Source of the DNA: Candidatus Saccharimonadota bacterium
Lineage (GTDB): Bacteria > Patescibacteriota > Saccharimonadia > Saccharimonadales > HK-STAS-PATE-42
DNA: 64,000 nt
Direction: 5' to 3'
NCBI GenBank assembly: GCA_036826375.1
Contig: DAISWL010000001.1
Coordinates: 104,201 to 168,200 of the forward strand
The notes under the pieces were generated by a model. The model saw nothing but the letters and a program-made list of their open reading frames with translations, was not told the DNA's origin and ran no database searches. Shown here one piece after another: positions 14,353 to 19,856 of the stretch. Made by a program: the position numbers and the translations under genes. Within the stretch, counting starts at the first letter, position 1, and each line of letters starts with the position of its first letter.

Positions 14353-16194
14353 TTACTTATTTTTTGATTTAGATTTTAGCTTTTTGGCTGAATTTTTATT
14401 CGGCTGAGGGGTTGATTCCTCTTTTGGTTTGGAATGAATTATTTTTTCCTCAGCAATTTCAACAAGCTTATGGTTAAGAGCTATTACCCCAATTGCATGA
14501 TGACGCTTAACTTGAATTTCTTCGGCGATGTCATCTTGAATAAACTTAATATGACGTTTTTTATGAGCTTCGAAGCTCCTTTTGCTTAAGCCGTTTTTCT
14601 GTAAAAATTCAGCCACCTTACGGCCCCCAATTGAATGAGGCATCATCACATAATTAACGCCTTTGTCGTACAGTTCTTGAGCGTGCTGAGGAGTATCGGC
14701 GTTGGCGACGATGATTGTATCTTTTTCGGTTCTAGCCTCTAGTAGATCTATTAAGTTTGATACCGGCTCAAATTCTGTAATGGTAGAAACTATTAGTTTA
14801 GCCTCTGAGATATCAATCTCATCTAGCAAATCAACTTGAGTGACATCTCCGTAAACGTAGGGTATGTTTTTACGATCCAGCTCATCTATAACTTCTGGGT
14901 CGTAATCTATTACTAAAGCCTTAAGTTTAATATCTTTTAAGGCCTTGATGAACTCTCGCCCGCCCTTACGATAACCAATAATTACCGCATCAAATTCAGA
15001 TTGATAAGCTTGTTCAAATTTGACCTTTCTTCTTTCAAATAAACTGAGGTGAGATTCAAATAATTTATACAAAAAGTCATCATAGCTGATCAAATAAGTT
15101 GATACCGTTATCGTAATCACTGCCACCATAGTTACCAGAGTTAGTACATCTTTATGCACCAACCCGCTTTCGCTAGCCAACACCATCATAATTAATGAAA
15201 ATTCACTAATTTGAGTATGGGTGATTCCGGCTTTGAAGCTAGTTTTTTTAGTGTAGCCAAACAATCCAACAATAGTGGTTACTATTAAAGGTTTAAAGAT
15301 TATCACCGCCGCCGATACAAGAACCGCAGGCAATAGAATTGAGCCCACCGAGCCGAGTTCTAGCTCCGCCCCTAAGCTTATGAAGAATACTATCAAGAAG
15401 AAATCTCTAAGTGGTCGCATTTTAGATGCTATCTCACTTGAATAAATCATATCCGCCAGAGCTACCCCCGAAAAGAGAGCTCCCACTTCTAAAGAAAAGC
15501 CTATTTTATTAAACAGTGTTGCTATGCCAAATGCCCACGCCAGAGAAAATAGGAACAATAGTTCATGAGATTGGCTTAACATAGTGGTCATCTTACTTAA
15601 AACAAACCTAGAAAAAGCCATAATTAAAGCAATCAGAGCTATCCCTTTTACCAATAGAATAATTAAGCTTAAAGGGCTGAAGCCTCCCCTGGAGCTAGCG
15701 GCTATAAAAACTAAAGCTATCGTTGCTAAAATATCTTGAAAAATTAAGATACCTATCGTCAGTTTGCCATGAAGCTGATTTTGCTCTTTATTATCACTAA
15801 GTAATTTTAAGATGATAATCGTGCTACTAAATGAAAGCGATATGGCCAGCAAAATAGCCTCGCCAGTGCCCACGCCTACTAAACTTAATAACAGGGTAGC
15901 CAGCAGTGTTGAAAACACTACTTGGATTGCGCCAACAATAGTTGCGGTTTTGCCTACCTCTTTTACTACTGACGGGCTTAAGCCTAGTCCCACAGTAAAC
16001 AAAAGTAGTGCAATGCCAAACTTAGACATGATGTTTATAATTTCAGATTCATGCACCACACCTAGCACAGCCGGGCCAATGACTATCCCCGTTAGAATAT
16101 AACTTATTATTATCGGCTGCTTCATGGTTCTAGCCATAACAGCGAAACCGGCACTAATCGCAAGCAAGATGCTAATCTGTGTGAATATATCCAT
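14353..16194 (-). CDS. cation:proton antiporter (CPA2/Kef-type) with C-terminal RCK/TrkA-N domain
   Basis: About 12-13 TM helices in the N-terminal 380 aa, then a Rossmann-like AVIIGYRKGGREF domain and a Lys-rich tail. Confidence 0.85.
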   Translation of the reverse strand: MDIFTQISILLAISAGFAVMARTMKQPIIISYILTGIVIGPAVLGVVHESEIINIMSKFGIALLLFTVGLGLSPSVVKEVGKTATIVGAIQVVFSTLLATLLLSLVGVGTGEAILLAISLSFSSTIIILKLLSDNKEQNQLHGKLTIGILIFQDILATIALVFIAASSRGGFSPLSLIILLVKGIALIALIMAFSRFVLSKMTTMLSQSHELLFLFSLAWAFGIATLFNKIGFSLEVGALFSGVALADMIYSSEIASKMRPLRDFFLIVFFISLGAELELGSVGSILLPAVLVSAAVIIFKPLIVTTIVGLFGYTKKTSFKAGITHTQISEFSLIMMVLASESGLVHKDVLTLVTMVAVITITVSTYLISYDDFLYKLFESHLSLFERRKVKFEQAYQSEFDAVIIGYRKGGREFIKALKDIKLKALVIDYDPEVIDELDRKNIPYVYGDVTQVDLLDEIDISEAKLIVSTITEFEPVSNLIDLLEARTEKDTIIVANADTPQHAQELYDKGVNYVMMPHSIGGRKVAEFLQKNGLSKRSFEAHKKRHIKFIQDDIAEEIQVKRHHAIGVIALNHKLVEIAEEKIIHSKPKEESTPQPNKNSAKKLKSKSKNK

Positions 16195-16307
16195 AATTAT
16201 TTTAGATTTTTATTTTTAGTGTTTTATTTCATCTTGCCTTTGCTGATTATATAATAACCTGAGCTTAAGCTTAATGTCAAAGCATATTATATAATTATTC
16301 TAAAAAT

Positions 16308-16336
16308 TTGCAAATTAGATTGCACTGTGCTACAAT
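16308..16336 (+). promoter_or_regulatory. sigma70-type promoter (TTGCAA - 17 nt - TACAAT)
   Basis: -35 TTGCAA at 16308-16313, a 17-nt spacer, and -10 TACAAT at 16331-16336. The leader ATG lies 7 nt downstream, so the transcript may be leaderless. Confidence 0.6.
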
Positions 16337-16343
16337 TTTAAAG

Positions 16344-16406
16344 ATGAAAAATTTCGCAAACAACCAATACTGGTATTCTACTTGGCTAAGGGCAAGTGGA
16401 GTTTAG
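16344..16406 (+). CDS. candidate 20-aa leader peptide MKNFANNQYWYSTWLRASGV (Trp/Tyr-rich)
   Basis: I translated this by hand: ATG at 16344 and TAG at 16404-16406. The codons TAC TGG TAT TCT ACT TGG cluster just before the antiterminator segment. Confidence 0.55.
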   Translation: MKNFANNQYWYSTWLRASGV

Positions 16407-16439
16407 TTTGCACTAAAAATAGAAAAATAAGATTTTCAG

Positions 16440-16467
16440 CCTCCGCCACTTGCCGCGGAGGTTTTTT
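16440..16467 (+). terminator. attenuator terminator
   Basis: CCTCCGC-CACTTGCC-GCGGAGG (7-bp GC-rich stem) followed by TTTTTT. GGCAAGTGG at 16391-16399 is complementary to CCACTTGCC at 16446-16454, giving a mutually exclusive pairing. Confidence 0.75.
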
Positions 16468-16494
16468 GTTATTAAGAATTAAAGGAGAATTATT

Positions 16495-17115
16495 ATGAAT
16501 AAATTACACACCACCAAAAGAATATTAATTATAGGGGGCATGGGCCCTCAGGCATCTATACACGCTCATAAGCGTCTACAAGAACTACTTACAGAGAACG
16601 GCAAGAATGCCGAAATAGTTCATGTCAGCCTAATCATTAAACATTTTTTTAATAATAGTGGCCGACCAAAACTAAACTTAACAGATAGACAAATTACCCT
16701 ACTAAGCTCAATAGATGCCGACCTCAGCTTTATAGCATGCAATACCGCTCATTTGTTTTTTGATAATATTTCTAGCTTAATTAAACCTAAGCTGGTTTCC
16801 ATGTTAGATTTTGACACTCATCATAACCCCGTTATAGTGTCCTCGCCAACCAGTAAAAAATTTAAAGTTTTCGGTGATACCGCTAACCACTTAGATGATG
16901 AGCTAGATAAAATTACAGGTGAGATAATAGAGCTTGTTATCCAAGGTGATGAGGAAGAAGCGACCAATAAGTTCAAAAAACTAATGAACGCTCTACCGCA
17001 AAATCAAGAGGCTTTAGTTGGTTGCACTGAACTAAGCATGCTGGCTCACAAGTTAAACTTAAACGTACGATGCACCCTAGAAGAATTTCTTCGTAAGCTG
17101 GTGTGGGATCTATAA
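16495..17115 (+). CDS. Asp/Glu-type amino-acid racemase family protein
   Basis: GGMGPQAS, FIACNTAH and VGCTELS motifs, which supply the two catalytic Cys. SD AAAGGAG lies upstream. Confidence 0.75.
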   Translation: MNKLHTTKRILIIGGMGPQASIHAHKRLQELLTENGKNAEIVHVSLIIKHFFNNSGRPKLNLTDRQITLLSSIDADLSFIACNTAHLFFDNISSLIKPKLVSMLDFDTHHNPVIVSSPTSKKFKVFGDTANHLDDELDKITGEIIELVIQGDEEEATNKFKKLMNALPQNQEALVGCTELSMLAHKLNLNVRCTLEEFLRKLVWDL

Positions 17116-17155
17116 TTAAACTTAAGTTACAACAGAAAGATATTAAGGAGAAGTT

Positions 17156-17863
17156 ATGACCATAACAATTTTCGGCACCGGCAGCTTTGGCAAACTAATT
17201 GCCAAGCTCTGCCCCCAGCAAACAAAAGTAAACTTACTAAGCTTAAGAGCGCTTAGTGATGCCGAGCTCAAAGATACTTTAGAGCGAACCGACATCTTGT
17301 TTTTGACTATCCCCCTTTCCGCCTACCAAAAATCTTTGGCCAGAATTAAAACCTTTTTAAAAGAAGAAACTCTACTGGTAGATGTCTGTTCGGTTAAGCT
17401 CGCACCCTCCGCTAAAATTAAAGAGCTACTTCCCGAACATAAAAACTTGCTAATTACTCACCCGCTCTTTGGTCCTCAGAGTAGCAAGAACGGAACCAGA
17501 ACTGAAGGGTTAAGCTTAGTCCTTTGCCATAAACAGGGCGAACTAGCTGATAGAGTAATTTCATATTCAAAAAGTATTCTTAAACTTAAGATAGTTGAAA
17601 TGGATGCCCGCGAACATGATAGACAAATGGCCAACGCCCAGGCTCTAACATTTTTCGTATCAGAGGTTTTATCTAAATTTAAGTTTAATGACCAGATTTT
17701 AAAAACTCCAAGTTTTGAGGAATTGCTAGATTTAAGGGGTTTAGCGGAAAAAGAAAGCACAGATCTACTACGCTTAATCCAGAATGATAATCCATTTGCC
17801 CAGGAACTGCGCAACAAGTTTATAACTGAGGCCTTAAAAATTAATAAGAAATATACATCTTAA
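17156..17863 (+). CDS. tyrA: prephenate/arogenate dehydrogenase
   Basis: Rossmann ITIFGTGSFGKLIAK, HPLFGPQS, and a dimerisation-domain pattern ending in ...NPFAQELR. Confidence 0.8.
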   Translation: MTITIFGTGSFGKLIAKLCPQQTKVNLLSLRALSDAELKDTLERTDILFLTIPLSAYQKSLARIKTFLKEETLLVDVCSVKLAPSAKIKELLPEHKNLLITHPLFGPQSSKNGTRTEGLSLVLCHKQGELADRVISYSKSILKLKIVEMDAREHDRQMANAQALTFFVSEVLSKFKFNDQILKTPSFEELLDLRGLAEKESTDLLRLIQNDNPFAQELRNKFITEALKINKKYTS

Positions 17864-17896
17864 GGATCTAATCTAAGCTATAATTGAGAAGAGAAT

Positions 17897-18787
17897 ATGA
17901 AACTAATTTTTGAAAAATCAGAACAGTTTATCTTAACTCACGGCCGAGAATTAGAAAAGGCATTATTTAATTATCATTTTAAAGATGGAAGCAAAAATTC
18001 GGTTTTAAAAGAGCTTATTAAGTTTCAGAATCAGGATGGTGGTTTCGGTAACGGCATAGAACCAGATCTAAGGCTCCCGCAATCTACAGATATATCTACC
18101 TGGTGCGCTTTGCGTTTGTTGAAAGATTTAGACATTAGTAATGATGAAACCGTGCTTAATGCAGCTCTAGATTATTTAGAACTTAAGTTTAATACAAAAA
18201 AGAGGGGCTGGGACATTGTTGTTCCAGGGGTAAATAACTGCCCCCACGCTCCCTGGTGGAGCTACGAAGACGCCATAAAACATTTCGGATGGGGCAACCC
18301 ATCAGCAGAAATACTAGGATTTTTTATTAAATATAGAAGCTCTTTCAAATTAATAAAACCGCTTCTGGAACTAGCATCTCAAAAAATTCTAGAGGTTAAA
18401 CCTAATGACTTTAACGAGATAGATTGTTTCAAAAAGTTATATGACTTAGCCGATGGTAACCTAATGGAGCAATTACGCAAACCGCTCATCTCACTGATGC
18501 AGAATTCTATCGAGAAAGATCCAGAAAAACAGAACGAATACGTGGCCAGGCCGCTTACTTTTGTAGATAGTCCCTCTGATAATCTAATCAGCGTATTTAG
18601 TCCAACTCTTATTGAAGAAAATCTGAGTTTTATTGTTAAAAGCTTTGATCATAAAAGTGGTTGCTGGCATCCAAACTGGGATTGGGATGGTAATTACCCC
18701 GAGCAGTGGCAAAAAGCTAAACAAGAATGGCAAGGAATCTTAACACTAAATAACCTATTAAAACTAAGAACTTTTGGAAAAATCTAA
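17897..18787 (+). CDS. hypothetical protein (weak prenyltransferase/terpene-cyclase-like alpha-alpha toroid signature)
   Basis: The QNQDGGFGNG motif and repeated aromatic/Trp-rich segments. The assignment is weak. Confidence 0.5.
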   Translation: MKLIFEKSEQFILTHGRELEKALFNYHFKDGSKNSVLKELIKFQNQDGGFGNGIEPDLRLPQSTDISTWCALRLLKDLDISNDETVLNAALDYLELKFNTKKRGWDIVVPGVNNCPHAPWWSYEDAIKHFGWGNPSAEILGFFIKYRSSFKLIKPLLELASQKILEVKPNDFNEIDCFKKLYDLADGNLMEQLRKPLISLMQNSIEKDPEKQNEYVARPLTFVDSPSDNLISVFSPTLIEENLSFIVKSFDHKSGCWHPNWDWDGNYPEQWQKAKQEWQGILTLNNLLKLRTFGKI

Positions 18788-18833
18788 TAAATACTCACTA
18801 AACTTAAGTTATAATATTTATAAAGGAAGAAAT

Positions 18834-19856
18834 ATGAAACCAACTATACTTACAGGAATTAAGAACTCAGGCCGATTGCACATCGGCAGTTACCTCGGTG
18901 CCATCAAACCAATGGTTGAGCTGCAGCAAACCAAAGTTAAATCTGGCGAATATCAAATGAACATGTTCATTCCAGATTTACACGTATTAACCGTTCCGAC
19001 AGATTACGCTAAACTTAAGCGCTTTATGCTAGATAACCTCAAACTCTACATAGCTTGCGGGTTGGATCCGAGCGATGTTAACACTCACCTTTATCGCCAG
19101 AGCCGCATCTCGGCTCACTCTGAAATGTGCGTTTTACTCAATAACTTTACTAGTTTTGGTGAACTTAGCCGTCAAACTCAGTTTAAAGATCAGCATAGTA
19201 AGGGCGCAGAAGTAAGTGTTGGGTTATTTGATTACCCTGTTTTAATGGCGGCGGATATCTTACTTTATAACTCTAGATACGTTCCAGTTGGCGATGATCA
19301 GCGTCAGCATTTAGAGCTAGCCCGCAATATCGCAATTAGAATTAACAATAAATTCGGTGAGATATTTGTAGTTCCAGATGAGATTAAAAAACAGGTTGAG
19401 TTTGCTGGGCTAGAGAAATCTTTAAGAATAATGAGCTTAGCTAGCCCAACTGATAAAATGAGTAAATCTGTTAATGACCCACGCGGAACGATTGATTTGC
19501 AAGATTCCCCTGCCGAGGCCAGAAAAAAGATTATGGCCGCCGAAACCGATAGCCTAGCTAACGTTAATTACGATCCTATCAAACAGCCAGGAATTAGTAA
19601 CCTGATCGAGATTTACGCTAACTTCAAAAACCTGAAGTTAGTTGAAGCTGAGGCAAAATTCAAAGGAAGCGAACGCTACGGTGATCTTAAAAAACAAGTT
19701 GCTGATGTAGTTTGTGAATTTTTAGAAGATATTCAACTTAAGTTTAGCGAAATTAGCGATGAAGAGGTTATGCAAATTCTGGAACGTGGAGAATTAACCG
19801 TAAAACCAACTGCCGATAAAACACTACTCAGAATGCAGAAAGTTCTAGGGCTGTAA
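18834..19856 (+). CDS. trpS: tryptophan--tRNA ligase
   Basis: Class I aaRS with GRLHIGSYLGA (HIGH region), KMSKS and GDDQRQHLEL. I placed the start at Met21 of the track ORF because of the AAAGGAAG SD. Confidence 0.93.
   Translation: MKPTILTGIKNSGRLHIGSYLGAIKPMVELQQTKVKSGEYQMNMFIPDLHVLTVPTDYAKLKRFMLDNLKLYIACGLDPSDVNTHLYRQSRISAHSEMCVLLNNFTSFGELSRQTQFKDQHSKGAEVSVGLFDYPVLMAADILLYNSRYVPVGDDQRQHLELARNIAIRINNKFGEIFVVPDEIKKQVEFAGLEKSLRIMSLASPTDKMSKSVNDPRGTIDLQDSPAEARKKIMAAETDSLANVNYDPIKQPGISNLIEIYANFKNLKLVEAEAKFKGSERYGDLKKQVADVVCEFLEDIQLKFSEISDEEVMQILERGELTVKPTADKTLLRMQKVLGL

What the first reader, a model, noticed from the sequence alone, without database searches (positions are those of the whole stretch)
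16308..16467. Trp/Tyr leader-peptide transcription attenuator in front of a racemase-tyrA-trpS operon
A good promoter (TTGCAA-17-TACAAT) is followed 7 nt later by a 20-codon ORF, MKNFANNQYWYSTWLRASGV, carrying two Trp, two Tyr and one Phe.

The last codons, GGCAAGTGG at 16391-16399, are complementary to CCACTTGCC at 16446-16454. That segment is the loop and inner edge of a strong terminator (CCTCCGC...GCGGAGG followed by T6, 16440-16467).

A ribosome that reaches the TAG at 16404 would cover the antiterminator strand and let the terminator form. Stalling at the TAC TGG TAT ... TGG codons would leave the antiterminator strand free. This is the classic trp-type logic.

Here it controls an Asp/Glu-type racemase, prephenate dehydrogenase, an unknown protein and TrpRS. 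trpS is usually controlled by T-box or TRAP systems, so leader-peptide control of an aaRS, and a lone tyrA in what looks like a biosynthetically poor genome, are both unusual.
Basis: partly seen in the sequence, partly recalled or inferred. Interest (0 to 1): 0.55.

Follow-up and report, generated by a model that had tools for sequence, protein, structure and literature searches.

The report
Tryptophan-sensing leader-peptide attenuator in Saccharibacteria
A 20-codon mini-gene and a switchable terminator in front of the tryptophanyl-tRNA synthetase operon of an ultrasmall Saccharibacteria (CPR) bacterium form a classic ribosome-stalling switch, conserved across this little-studied lineage, that should switch the operon on when tryptophan runs short.

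Summary
The window comes from a Candidatus Saccharibacteria MAG.

Positions 16308-16467 contain:
- a conserved promoter;
- a 20-codon ORF (MKNFANNQYWYSTWLRASGV) whose ATG lies 7 nt after the -10 box, so the mRNA is probably leaderless;
- three alternative pairings (1:2, 2:3, 3:4);
- the strongest intrinsic terminator in the 64 kb.

The pairing 16391-99/16446-54 stays paired in all 7 sequences of the window's clade. One relative (L094) carries two compensatory double changes in it.

About 30 further leaders show the same architecture in front of racemase-trpS, and in front of prephenate dehydratase or DAHP synthase. They come from Saccharibacteria and one Levybacteria MAG.
- The first Trp codon always sits 14-22 nt before the antiterminator strand.
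- The 5' end of that strand always lies inside the ORF.
- The C-terminal part of the peptide changes reading frame between lineages while the RNA pairing is kept.

Most likely this is a Trp-codon, ribosome-mediated transcription attenuator. It is a new member of a known kind. Precedents include E. coli trp and pheST, Streptomyces trpS and the leaderless leader peptides of Deinococcus. No Rfam family matches it, and I found no report of one in CPR. No expression data were available.

The parts
16308..16336 (+). Sigma-70-type promoter: -35 TTGCAA (16308-13), 17-nt spacer with extended -10 TG (16328-29), -10 TACAAT (16331-36). Predicted transcription start at about 16343-16344.
   Evidence: In the 7-sequence clade alignment the TTG of the -35, the TG, and the TA...T of the -10 are invariant while the spacer varies. 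The distance from -10 to ATG is 6-9 nt (mode 7) in promoter-proximal leaders of other lineages.
16344..16406 (+). Leader-peptide ORF, 20 codons plus TAG: MKNFANNQYWYSTWLRASGV. No Shine-Dalgarno sequence, so probably leaderless.
   Evidence: Conserved in L088, L090-L096 and L094. Changes in codons 2-10 of the close relatives are all synonymous third-position changes. Homologous W-containing ORFs occur in about 30 other leaders.
16371..16373 (+). Sensor Trp codon W10 (TGG), flanked by Tyr codons 16368-70 and 16374-76. A second TGG (W14, 16383-85) lies inside region 1.
   Evidence: The first Trp codon is present in all 32 leaders measured and lies 14-22 nt (median 19; 20 here) upstream of the start of region 2.
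16375..16386 (+). Region 1 (anti-antiterminator strand, core CUACUUGGC). It pairs with region 2 and resembles region 3 (CCACUUGCC) in sequence.
   Evidence: MFE folds. The 1:2 hairpin is -13.1 kcal/mol. The helix is 94% paired in the 7-sequence clade. It spans W+7 to W+15, inside the footprint of a ribosome stalled at W10.
16391..16402 (+). Region 2 (antiterminator 5' strand). GGCAAGUGG 16391-99 pairs with region 3; 16393-16402 pairs with region 1. An alternative register pairs GUGGAG 16396-16401 with CUCCGC 16441-46. It lies inside the ORF, 5-13 nt before the stop codon.
   Evidence: 2:3 duplex -16.6 kcal/mol. The alternative register is read directly from the sequence.
16446..16454 (+). Region 3: CCACUUGCC, the last base of the terminator 5' arm plus the whole 8-nt loop.
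   Evidence: 9 pairs, 100% of 63 cells paired. There are two pairs with changes on both sides (C-G to U-A and G-C to A-U in L094) and one G-U (L091). Slid controls are 32-67% paired.
16438..16467 (+). Intrinsic terminator (3:4): AGCCUCCGC / GCGGAGGUU stem (core 16440-46 / 16455-61), 8-nt loop, T6 at 16462-67.
   Evidence: -15.2 kcal/mol. 95% paired in the clade. It is the strongest terminator in the window.
16495..17115 (+). First regulated gene: a two-cysteine Asp/Glu-type amino-acid racemase homologue (206 aa), with SD AAAGGAG.
   Evidence: Pfam PF01177. The nearest solved structures are aspartate racemases. It lies immediately upstream of trpS in most Saccharibacteria loci.
17156..17863 (+). 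Prephenate-dehydrogenase-like gene (235 aa). Variable cargo.
   Evidence: PF02153 and NCBIfam prephenate dehydrogenase models, all below the curated cut-offs. Absent in L088, present in L090 and L091.
17897..18787 (+). Unknown 296-aa protein. Variable cargo.
   Evidence: No match in Pfam, NCBIfam or PDB. Absent in L088 and L091.
18834..19856 (+). trpS, tryptophan--tRNA ligase (340 aa from ATG 18834 with SD AAAGGAAG; an upstream in-frame TTG at 18774 would give 360 aa).
   Evidence: TIGR00233 290 bits against a cut-off of 177. PF00579. Start read. Gene callers give 340 aa in L002, L088 and L091.

Best explanation
This is a ribosome-mediated (leader-peptide) transcription attenuator that senses charged tRNA-Trp. 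It controls the operon racemase / prephenate-dehydrogenase-like / unknown / trpS.

**Proposed mechanism**
1. Transcription starts at about 16343-44, so the RNA begins at or next to the AUG and is translated as a leaderless mRNA (inferred).
2. When Trp-tRNA is plentiful, the ribosome runs to the TAG at 16404. There it covers region 2 (16391-16402). Regions 3 and 4 then form the terminator and transcription stops at the T-run (16462-67), giving an RNA of about 125 nt.
3. With no ribosome, the 1:2 hairpin sequesters region 2, with the same outcome.
4. When Trp-tRNA is scarce, the ribosome stalls with UGG 16371-73 in its A site. Its footprint covers region 1 (16375-86) and ends before region 2.
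5. Region 2 then pairs with 16446-54 as soon as that segment is made. This 9-bp helix uses the whole terminator loop plus one stem base, leaving no linker to the 3' arm. The two structures therefore cannot coexist, and a shifted register (16396-16401 with 16441-46) attacks the stem directly. RNA polymerase reads through into the operon.

**Shown here:** the sequence elements, their conservation, the covariation and the constant geometry.

**Inferred:** the transcription start, translation of the ORF, stalling, and the response to Trp.
For: **Sequence and energetics**
- The elements are exactly as described.
- Energies: 1:2 -13.1, 2:3 -16.6, 3:4 -15.2 kcal/mol. None of 5000 shuffles reproduces the 9-nt complementarity.

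**The window's clade (racemase 60-90% identical)**
- The promoter key bases, the ORF and the pairings are all kept.
- 2:3 is 100% paired with 2 compensatory double changes. 1:2 is 94% and 3:4 is 95% paired.
- All 5 variable sites in codons 2-10 of the six close sequences are synonymous third positions.

**The wider family**
- In 89 related loci, the combination of a short W-containing ORF and a terminator gives 72 hits on the gene strand against 16 on the other strand.
- In a 20-sequence alignment, 2:3 is 95.6% paired with 5 double-changed cells (1 of 500 shuffles reach this). 3:4 is 98.3% paired.
- When the RNA is masked up to 13 nt past the first base of the Trp codon, the remainder folds into an antiterminator that occupies the terminator 5' arm in nearly all 35 leaders (z mostly -2 to -5). 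When masked from the stop codon, nothing stable is left.
- Geometry is constant. The first Trp codon lies 14-22 nt before region 2. Region 2 starts 10-30 nt before the stop codon in 32 of 32 leaders.
- The C-terminal half of the peptide switches frame between lineages (TSRGGLFRVF versus TSVAVCSV) while the RNA sequence GUGGCGGU is kept. The W codon always stays in frame.

**Start contexts fit translation**
- The -10 box lies 6-9 nt before the ATG in promoter-proximal leaders.
- Internal leaders overlap the upstream stop codon (ATGA, TAAAATG) or have an AGGA Shine-Dalgarno sequence.

**Cargo**
- The cargo fits the signal. trpS is the conserved last gene. Sister leaders rich in Phe, Tyr and Trp precede prephenate dehydratase and DAHP synthase.
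Against: - There are no expression data: no TSS, no term-seq, no ribosome profiling.
- Leaderless translation has not been demonstrated in Saccharibacteria.
- In the window's clade the antiterminator pairs with the terminator loop and only one stem base. Mutual exclusion therefore rests on a steric argument, not on plain strand competition as in the other clades.
- There is only one effective sensor codon. The second Trp codon (W14) would, if it stalled the ribosome, mask region 2 and favour termination.
- The 1:2 pairing is weakly supported in the broad alignment (73% paired, not above the shuffles).
- The outer stem seen in the MFE fold (16356-61 / 16406-11) is not conserved in L094.
- Synonymous-only change in codons 2-10 could partly reflect RNA-level constraint, because a small hairpin at 16363-74 overlaps these codons.
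- A TATAAT at 18810-15 could give trpS attenuator-independent expression.
Confidence: 0.85

Rival explanations
1. A structured RNA switch that works without translation, such as a riboswitch or a target of an RNA-binding protein. The conserved alternative pairings respond to a ligand or protein, and the ORF is incidental.
For: - The RNA is strongly structured (z = -4.3).
- The stretch UGGUUUACCGACAC...GUGGCGGU is conserved at the nucleotide level in many leaders.
- The C-terminal peptide is not conserved.
Against: - Every leader keeps an ATG-initiated frame through the Trp codon, despite indels downstream.
- Start contexts are either a -10 box 6-9 nt upstream or coupling/SD.
- The spacing from Trp codon to region 2 is constant, and region 2 always begins inside the ORF.
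- Changes in codons 2-10 are synonymous only.
- Four or five sequence-unrelated versions share only the coding and geometry logic.
- There is no conserved ligand-pocket-like junction. The outer stem is not conserved.
- There is no Rfam match and no TRAP-like (G/U)AG repeat array (sequence).
Confidence: 0.06
2. A TnaC-like arrest peptide. The nascent peptide senses free L-Trp in the ribosome exit tunnel and stalls, so the operon would be induced by high rather than low Trp.
For: - The peptide N-terminal half is conserved at the amino-acid level in the window's clade.
- Many relatives have W-F/Y-T-D, which faintly recalls TnaC W12...D16 (the TnaC motif is recalled from memory).
Against: - The C-terminal half changes reading frame between lineages, and no conserved C-terminal Pro plus stop is present.
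- The T-D-T codons are explained by RNA: ACCGACAC is region 1 and mimics ACCGCCAC.
- In the Nanosynbacter-type leaders the N-terminal residues vary freely while W is kept.
- Inducing TrpRS at high Trp makes little physiological sense.
Confidence: 0.03
3. An independent small gene, either a 20-aa peptide or a roughly 125-nt sRNA, with its own promoter and terminator. The operon would be transcribed from elsewhere and not be regulated by it.
For: - The promoter plus terminator delimit a compact unit.
- Attenuator-derived RNAs can act in trans in other bacteria, for example rnTrpL (PMC6614838).
Against: - There is no second promoter between 16467 and the racemase ATG at 16495, only 27 nt with an SD.
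- The element always sits directly upstream of the same operon types, although the chromosomal location differs.
- The conserved 2:3 covariation has no role in a plain terminator.
- A trans function would add to attenuation, not replace it.
Confidence: 0.04
4. A T-box-like tRNA-sensing riboswitch, the usual trpS regulator in Firmicutes. UGG would be the specifier and UGGC would contact the tRNA-Trp 3' end.
For: - Region 2 of many relatives contains UGGC (GUGGCGG), and a UGG lies upstream.
Against: - There is no hit to the T-box model, even at E<=10 on the region or at gathering threshold on 12 loci.
- At about 125 nt the leader is too short for Stem I.
- UGGC is fully base-paired in 2:3, not in a bulge.
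- The window's clade has UGGA, the Nanosynbacter type has no UGG in region 2, and the Phe-type leaders do not have UGGU.
Confidence: 0.01

Closest known systems
E. coli / enterobacterial trp operon leader (trpL; Rfam Trp_leader)
   Same: A short leader ORF with Trp codons. Four segments form 1:2, 2:3 (antiterminator) and 3:4 (intrinsic terminator). Stalling at Trp codons uncovers region 2, and the stop codon places the ribosome over region 2.
   Different: - No sequence or covariance-model similarity.
- It controls TrpRS and a racemase rather than Trp biosynthesis.
- One effective sensor codon instead of a tandem pair.
- Probably leaderless instead of SD-led.
- In the window's clade the antiterminator captures the terminator loop rather than its 5' arm.
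Predicted classical attenuators upstream of trpS (trpS2) and leuS in Streptomyces, and of pheST in gamma-proteobacteria (PMC1262725)
   Same: Leader-peptide attenuation of an aminoacyl-tRNA synthetase gene, with codons for the cognate amino acid.
   Different: - A different phylum and no sequence relationship tested.
- In Streptomyces avermitilis the regulated gene is named trpS2. Here the regulated trpS is the syntenic copy found after rplM-rpsI in most Saccharibacteria loci and is co-transcribed with a racemase.
Leaderless leader peptides of Deinococcus deserti (PMC4007540) and leaderless poly-Cys sORF attenuators of mycobacteria (bioRxiv 10.1101/834739)
   Same: The sensory sORF starts at the 5' end of the transcript. 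[quoted passage not shown]
   Different: - Those cases have mapped TSSs, and the mycobacterial ones have mutational proof. Here the TSS is only inferred from promoter spacing.
- The mycobacterial system unmasks a ribosome-binding site (translational control). This one has an intrinsic terminator (transcriptional control).
T-box riboswitch (usual regulator of trpS in Firmicutes)
   Same: The same physiological input (tRNA-Trp charging) and the same output (antitermination upstream of trpS).
   Different: No Stem I, no specifier loop and no T-box bulge. There is no model hit. The sensor here is a translating ribosome.

Membership tests
Classical ribosome-mediated (leader-peptide) transcription attenuator | Short ORF in the 5' leader carrying codons for the amino acid linked to the regulated genes | tested here: met
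   20-codon ORF with TGG at codons 10 and 14, upstream of trpS. The Trp codon is retained in all 32 leaders measured.
Classical ribosome-mediated (leader-peptide) transcription attenuator | Intrinsic terminator between the leader ORF and the first structural gene | tested here: met
   9-bp GC-rich stem plus T6 at 16438-16467, -15.2 kcal/mol. 95-98% paired in alignments.
Classical ribosome-mediated (leader-peptide) transcription attenuator | Antiterminator (2:3) mutually exclusive with the terminator and supported by covariation | tested here: met
   Window's clade: 100% paired with 2 compensatory pairs. Broad set: 95.6% paired with 5 double-changed cells, reached by 1 of 500 shuffles. In the window's clade, exclusion is steric (loop capture) plus an alternative 6-bp register on the stem.
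Classical ribosome-mediated (leader-peptide) transcription attenuator | Anti-antiterminator (1:2) that a ribosome stalled at the regulatory codons disrupts | tested here: inconclusive
   Window's clade: 10-bp hairpin, -13.1 kcal/mol, 94% paired, located W+4 to W+13. Broad alignment: only 73% paired and not above the controls.
Classical ribosome-mediated (leader-peptide) transcription attenuator | Geometry: the regulatory codon is far enough upstream to leave region 2 free, and the stop codon is close enough for a terminating ribosome to cover region 2 | tested here: met
   The distance from the Trp codon to region 2 is 14-22 nt (20 in the window). Region 2 starts 10-30 nt before the stop codon in 32 of 32 leaders.
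Classical ribosome-mediated (leader-peptide) transcription attenuator | The ORF is actually translated, and readthrough rises on starvation for the amino acid | not testable with these tools
   Only indirect support: frame and start conservation, synonymous-only changes and start contexts.
Rfam Trp_leader / other curated leader families | Match to the family covariance model | tested here: not met
   No leader family among the hits at E<=10 on 15900-16800. Nothing but tRNAs at gathering threshold in the window and in 12 related loci.
T-box riboswitch | Stem I with specifier loop, plus a T-box antiterminator bulge (UGGN), with a match to the T-box model | tested here: not met
   No model hit. 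UGGN is not bulged and not conserved across clades.
TnaC-type ligand-sensing arrest peptide | Conserved nascent-peptide residues up to the stall site at the C-terminus or stop codon | tested here: not met
   The C-terminal half of the peptide shifts reading frame between lineages. No conserved C-terminal residue is present.
Leaderless mRNA | Transcription starts at (or within about 1 nt of) the start codon | tested here: inconclusive
   The distance from the -10 hexamer to the ATG is 7 nt here and 6-9 nt in about 17 promoter-proximal leaders. No SD is present. TSS mapping is not possible with these tools.

The most novel reading that the evidence does not exclude
Leader-peptide attenuators of this family are the general way in which Saccharibacteria, and perhaps other CPR bacteria, read their amino-acid supply from the host. 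In addition, the universally linked two-cysteine racemase would be a starvation-induced salvage enzyme that feeds TrpRS, for example by converting D-Trp or another D-aromatic amino acid to the L-form. The variable cargo (prephenate dehydrogenase, chorismate mutase, prephenate dehydratase, DAHP synthase) would then be a remnant or accessory aromatic pathway under the same ribosome-read control.
Probability: 0.2. Interest if true: 0.7.

Novelty: new member of a known kind. Interest (0 to 1): 0.45.

Why it matters
CPR/Patescibacteria are usually described as having minimal regulation and no amino-acid biosynthesis. Almost nothing is known about how they sense what the host supplies.

- **A testable sensor.** A conserved attenuator that reads Trp codons, in front of the TrpRS operon, gives a concrete cis-acting sensor of amino-acid starvation in these episymbionts.
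- **An unexplained gene pair.** The racemase-TrpRS pair is conserved, and its functional link is unknown.
- **Unexpected pathway genes.** Saccharibacteria carry aromatic-pathway genes (DAHP synthase, chorismate mutase, prephenate dehydratase and dehydrogenase) under sister leaders.
- **Practical value.** The leaders could be modelled for genome annotation. The Nanosynbacter-type version could be tested in cultivated strains.

The mechanism itself is textbook, so the value lies in where it occurs and what it controls, not in a new principle.

Tried and rejected
1. **Rfam.** I searched the region at E<=10, the window at gathering threshold and 12 related loci at gathering threshold. Only chance-level hits (manA-II, SNORA66, MicA) and tRNAs came back.
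2. **Metagenome DNA-pattern scan.** I searched for the clade-specific codons (CARWAYTGGTWYTYTRCTTGGCT). The 6 hits were all chance matches inside unrelated sequence, with no leader.
3. **The outer stem GCAAAC/GUUUGC (16356-61/16406-11) of the MFE fold.** It is not conserved in L094, so I dropped it from the model.
4. **T-box, TRAP-site and TnaC-like readings.** I considered and rejected these; see the rival explanations.
5. **Identity of the 296-aa protein (17897-18787), and of the 87-320-aa proteins found between leader and racemase in relatives.** No Pfam, NCBIfam or PDB match was found.
6. **The in-frame TTG at 16308 as an alternative start.** It coincides with the -35 hexamer, so I rejected it.
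7. **Literature searches for attenuators, leader peptides or riboswitch-type control in Saccharibacteria, Patescibacteria or CPR.** Nothing relevant turned up. The library covers open-access papers only.
Full report
**1. What is in the sequence**

Reading 16100-16700 confirms every coordinate in the finding.
- The -35 TTGCAA is at 16308-13. A 17-nt spacer follows, ending in TG-C (16328-30, an extended -10), and then the -10 TACAAT at 16331-36.
- Seven nt later comes ATG at 16344.
- The ORF is ATG AAA AAT TTC GCA AAC AAC CAA TAC TGG TAT TCT ACT TGG CTA AGG GCA AGT GGA GTT TAG (16344-16406), encoding MKNFANNQYWYSTWLRASGV.
- GGCAAGTGG (16391-99) is the exact reverse complement of CCACTTGCC (16446-54).
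- The terminator is CCTCCGC (16440-46), an 8-nt loop, GCGGAGG (16455-61) and T6 (16462-67).

The region lies between divergent genes.
- Upstream on the minus strand is a KefB-like antiporter (14353-16194).
- Downstream on the plus strand are a racemase homologue (16495-17115), a prephenate-dehydrogenase-like gene (17156-17863), an unknown gene (17897-18787) and trpS.
- The probable trpS start is ATG 18834, preceded by AAAGGAAG.

The plus-strand terminator therefore sits in a 5' leader and cannot belong to an upstream gene.

The 128-nt leader folds at -39.8 kcal/mol, z = -4.3. Strong intrinsic terminators are rare in this window, at 3-4 per strand in 64 kb, and this one is the strongest. None of 5000 shuffles of the leader body reproduces a 9-nt Watson-Crick match to the terminator 5' arm plus loop.

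There is no Shine-Dalgarno sequence before the ATG. With the ATG 7 nt after the -10 box, the transcript should begin at or next to the AUG.

**2. Organism and relatives**

NCBI names the racemase protein as coming from a Candidatus Saccharibacteria MAG. Near-identical contigs exist in several metagenomes.

I obtained more distant relatives in two ways.
- The contigs that encode racemase homologues of 60-90% identity gave L088-L096.
- A scan of one genome per GTDB species with a racemase alignment gave L008-L087.

The racemase sits immediately upstream of trpS in most Saccharibacteria loci and in a Levybacteria locus. In most of these genomes the pair follows the rplM-rpsI end of the ribosomal protein cluster. 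In the window it lies elsewhere.

**3.

In the window's clade (window, L090, L091, L093, L095, L096, L094; alignment A3) the following are invariant while the spacers vary:
- the promoter key positions (TTG of the -35, the TG, and TA...T of the -10);
- the ATG;
- both Trp codons;
- the terminator.

In the six close sequences, every variable site in codons 2-10 is a synonymous third position: AAA/AAG, TTC/TTT, AAC/AAT, CAA/CAG and TAC/TAT. Later changes are Y11F, S12F, T13A and R16K/M.

The 16391-99/16446-54 helix is paired in 63 of 63 cells. L094 (racemase 62% identical) reads GGUAAGUAG: CUACUUACC instead of GGCAAGUGG: CCACUUGCC. That is two compensatory double changes in what would otherwise be a mere terminator loop. 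L091 has a G-U pair. Sliding the partner by 1-3 columns drops pairing to 32-67%.

The 1:2 hairpin is 94% paired and the terminator 95%. The outer stem of the MFE fold (16356-61/16406-11) is not kept in L094, so I do not count it as part of the element.

**4. A family with the same logic**

Upstream of racemase-trpS, nearly all Saccharibacteria loci carry a promoter or an upstream stop codon, a short ATG-initiated ORF containing Trp, and a GC-rich terminator. In some loci a small extra gene lies in front of the racemase. Example peptides:
- MKVTKTQFWYYEKTLSWRYC (L008)
- MKFLNNKFWYFVTTLGWRYC (L011)
- MQTTQYWFTDTSRGGLFRVFV (L028)
- MNNNYWFTDTSVAVCSV (L073)
- MKLINRQNYWSTTSHTWRMYS (L054)
- MTIKRQFISTAWQSTRFRRGLLNCS (many Nanosynbacter-like MAGs)
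- MNQQMKSYWYYLTN (Levybacteria L074)

The same search pattern gives 72 hits on the gene strand of 89 loci and 16 on the opposite strand.

I simulated a ribosome stalled at the first Trp codon by masking the RNA up to 13 nt past the codon's first base. In nearly all of 35 leaders the remaining RNA then folds into a helix between a segment inside the ORF and the terminator 5' arm. Against shuffles z is mostly -2 to -5. When I masked from the stop codon instead, nothing stable remains.

The geometry is remarkably constant across 32 leaders.
- The first Trp codon lies 14-22 nt (median 19) before the antiterminator strand.
- That strand always starts 10-30 nt before the stop codon.
- Region 1 mostly spans W+5 to W+15.

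In a 20-sequence alignment of the GUGGCGG-type leaders:
- 2:3 is 95.6% paired with five double-changed cells, for example GUGGCGG:CCGCCAC to GUGACGG:CCGUCAC in L061 and L063;
- 3:4 is 98.3% paired, and only 1 of 500 shuffles reach the observed covariation for either helix;
- the fixed-register 1:2 pairing is only 73% paired and does not exceed the controls. It is the least secure part of the model outside the window's clade.

Two observations separate coding from RNA constraint.
- The 3' half of the peptide switches frame between lineages (…TSRGGLFRVF versus …TSVAVCSV) through a small indel. The RNA (GUGGCGGUYUGUUC) is kept, and the 5' half with the Trp codon stays in frame.
- The conserved T-D-T after W-F is ACCGACAC. 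This is region 1, a near copy of region 3 (ACCGCCAC). In the window, CUACUUGGC likewise copies CCACUUGCC.

**5. Start contexts**

In promoter-proximal leaders the -10 hexamer ends 6-9 nt (mode 7) before the ATG. These include the window, L094, L077, L047, L044, L014/15, L028 and L073 at their first ATG, and the Phe-type leaders of L008-L011.

Leaders located inside operons, after a prephenate dehydratase gene, instead overlap or abut the upstream stop codon (GTATGA in L010, TAAAATG in L008) or have an AGGA Shine-Dalgarno sequence. Both contexts fit a translated ORF.

For the window the first context implies a leaderless leader-peptide mRNA. Precedents for this arrangement are given in section 8.

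**6. Mechanism**

See Best explanation for the full sequence of events. Energies in the window are 1:2 -13.1, 2:3 -16.6 (duplex) and 3:4 -15.2 kcal/mol.

The window's clade has one peculiarity. Region 3 is the terminator loop plus one stem base, whereas in other clades region 3 is the terminator 5' arm itself.
- A 9-bp helix that uses all eight loop nucleotides leaves no linker to the 3' arm. The terminator stem and the 2:3 helix cannot both be complete. This is a structural inference.
- A shifted register, GUGGAG 16396-16401 with CUCCGC 16441-46, can also invade the stem directly. This is read from the sequence.

W10 is the sensor. A ribosome stalled at W14 (16383-85) would reach into region 2. 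That TGG is more simply explained as part of region 1.

The 1:2 hairpin followed by UUUAGUUUG was itself flagged as terminator-like. It may serve as the pause site that synchronises RNA polymerase with the ribosome. This is speculation.

**7. What is regulated**

The conserved core is racemase plus trpS. Close relatives vary in what lies between them:
- L088 has racemase followed directly by trpS;
- L091 has racemase, the PDH-like gene and trpS;
- L090 has at least racemase, the PDH-like gene and a third gene cut off by the contig end;
- the window has racemase, the PDH-like gene, the unknown gene and trpS.

The racemase keeps both catalytic-cysteine motifs (CNTAH and CTE). Its nearest solved relatives are aspartate racemases.

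Sister leaders rich in Phe, Tyr and Trp precede prephenate dehydratase, a LysE exporter and DAHP synthase homologues in the same loci. Examples are MKQIMHYYFGFWFTDTAKAASF and MIKTNRYFDFFWFAGSKEAASL. L094 has chorismate mutase plus a PDH-like gene just upstream. The tyrA-like gene is therefore part of a wider, patchy set of aromatic-pathway genes in these genomes.

**8. Comparison with what is known**

This works like the E. coli trp attenuator. Leader-peptide control of synthetase genes already has these precedents:
- pheST in gamma-proteobacteria, and predicted classical attenuators for Streptomyces trpS and leuS (PMC1262725);
- leaderless leader peptides in front of tRNA synthetase genes in Deinococcus deserti, supported by TSS mapping (PMC4007540);
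- leaderless sensory sORFs in mycobacteria, supported by mutational analysis (bioRxiv 10.1101/834739).

It is not a member of any curated Rfam family. I found no paper describing attenuators in Saccharibacteria or CPR in the searchable library.

**9. Verdict**

It is a new member of a known kind in an under-studied phylum, with three points of modest novelty: leaderless initiation, loop capture in this clade, and a conserved racemase-TrpRS cargo. All functional steps remain inferred from sequence comparison.

Noticed in passing
window 16495-19856; loci L008-L083: A two-cysteine Asp/Glu-type racemase homologue lies immediately upstream of trpS in most Saccharibacteria loci and in a Levybacteria locus (L074). 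The functional link between a racemase and TrpRS is unexplained. One possibility is salvage of D-aromatic amino acids.
   Followed up: partly
L008 2798-2916, L009 1992-2109, L010 2852-2963, L011 1900-2019, L060 2543-2664, L080 2616-2732: A second, Phe/Tyr/Trp-rich leader type (e.g. MKQIMHYYFGFWFTDTAKAASF) with the same four-region architecture. It precedes prephenate dehydratase, a LysE-type exporter or DAHP synthase homologues. Some loci carry two attenuators in series.
   Followed up: partly
window 17156-18787 versus L088, L090, L091, L094: The genes between racemase and trpS differ among close relatives: none, the PDH-like gene only, or the PDH-like gene plus the unknown gene. L094 has chorismate mutase (CM_2) plus a PDH-like gene plus a 189-aa unknown gene upstream of the leader instead.
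   Followed up: partly
L079 1582-4544: A contig binned as Gammaproteobacteria has a similar leader (MKNGLNLNQWYHVRLKGGCDFRV plus an ACCGCC/GGCGGT terminator). It lies in front of a racemase homologue, a HisRS-like gene and an EamA transporter. This is another racemase plus class II synthetase-like pairing.
   Followed up: no
L062 2930-3060, L082 1815-1931: A further sequence-unrelated leader variant (…GAWLSSLYTWELI / …GAWRRSHYIWEFS, with a GCUCCC/GGGAG terminator). In L062 it lies upstream of a 306-aa unknown gene followed by the racemase homologue; the genes downstream of it in L082 were not examined.
   Followed up: no
window 1-64000: Canonical intrinsic terminators are very rare in this genome segment, at 3-4 per strand in 64 kb by a strict stem plus T-run criterion. 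Most genes must therefore end transcription in some other way.
   Followed up: no
window 16251-16280 (minus strand) and 16264-16275: The divergent KefB-like gene has a near-consensus promoter on the minus strand (TTGACA-18-TATTAT). Its spacer contains CTTAAGCTTAAT. A similar TTGACTTAAGCTT(A/G)AT occurs at two plus-strand promoters in L094 (2143 and 2803). It may be a shared operator, or it may be chance in AT-rich DNA.
   Followed up: no
window 18810-18815: A perfect TATAAT lies 18 nt before the trpS ATG, inside the short gap after the unknown gene. If it is a promoter, it would give trpS basal expression independent of the attenuator. The -35 is poor.
   Followed up: no
window 16375-16411: The 1:2 hairpin followed by UUUAGUUUG was flagged as terminator-like by the consensus scan. 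It could act as the transcription pause site that couples the ribosome to RNA polymerase.
   Followed up: no
L009 3816-4000, L011 3741-4004, L012 3741-4001, L072 3716-3985; L080 3132-4001, L044 3048-4010, L061 3120-3992: Two kinds of protein without any Pfam match sit between the Trp leader and the racemase in different lineages. One kind is about 87-89 aa. The other is about 290-320 aa and contains a conserved …FTRHV(L/T)PPY… stretch.
   Followed up: no
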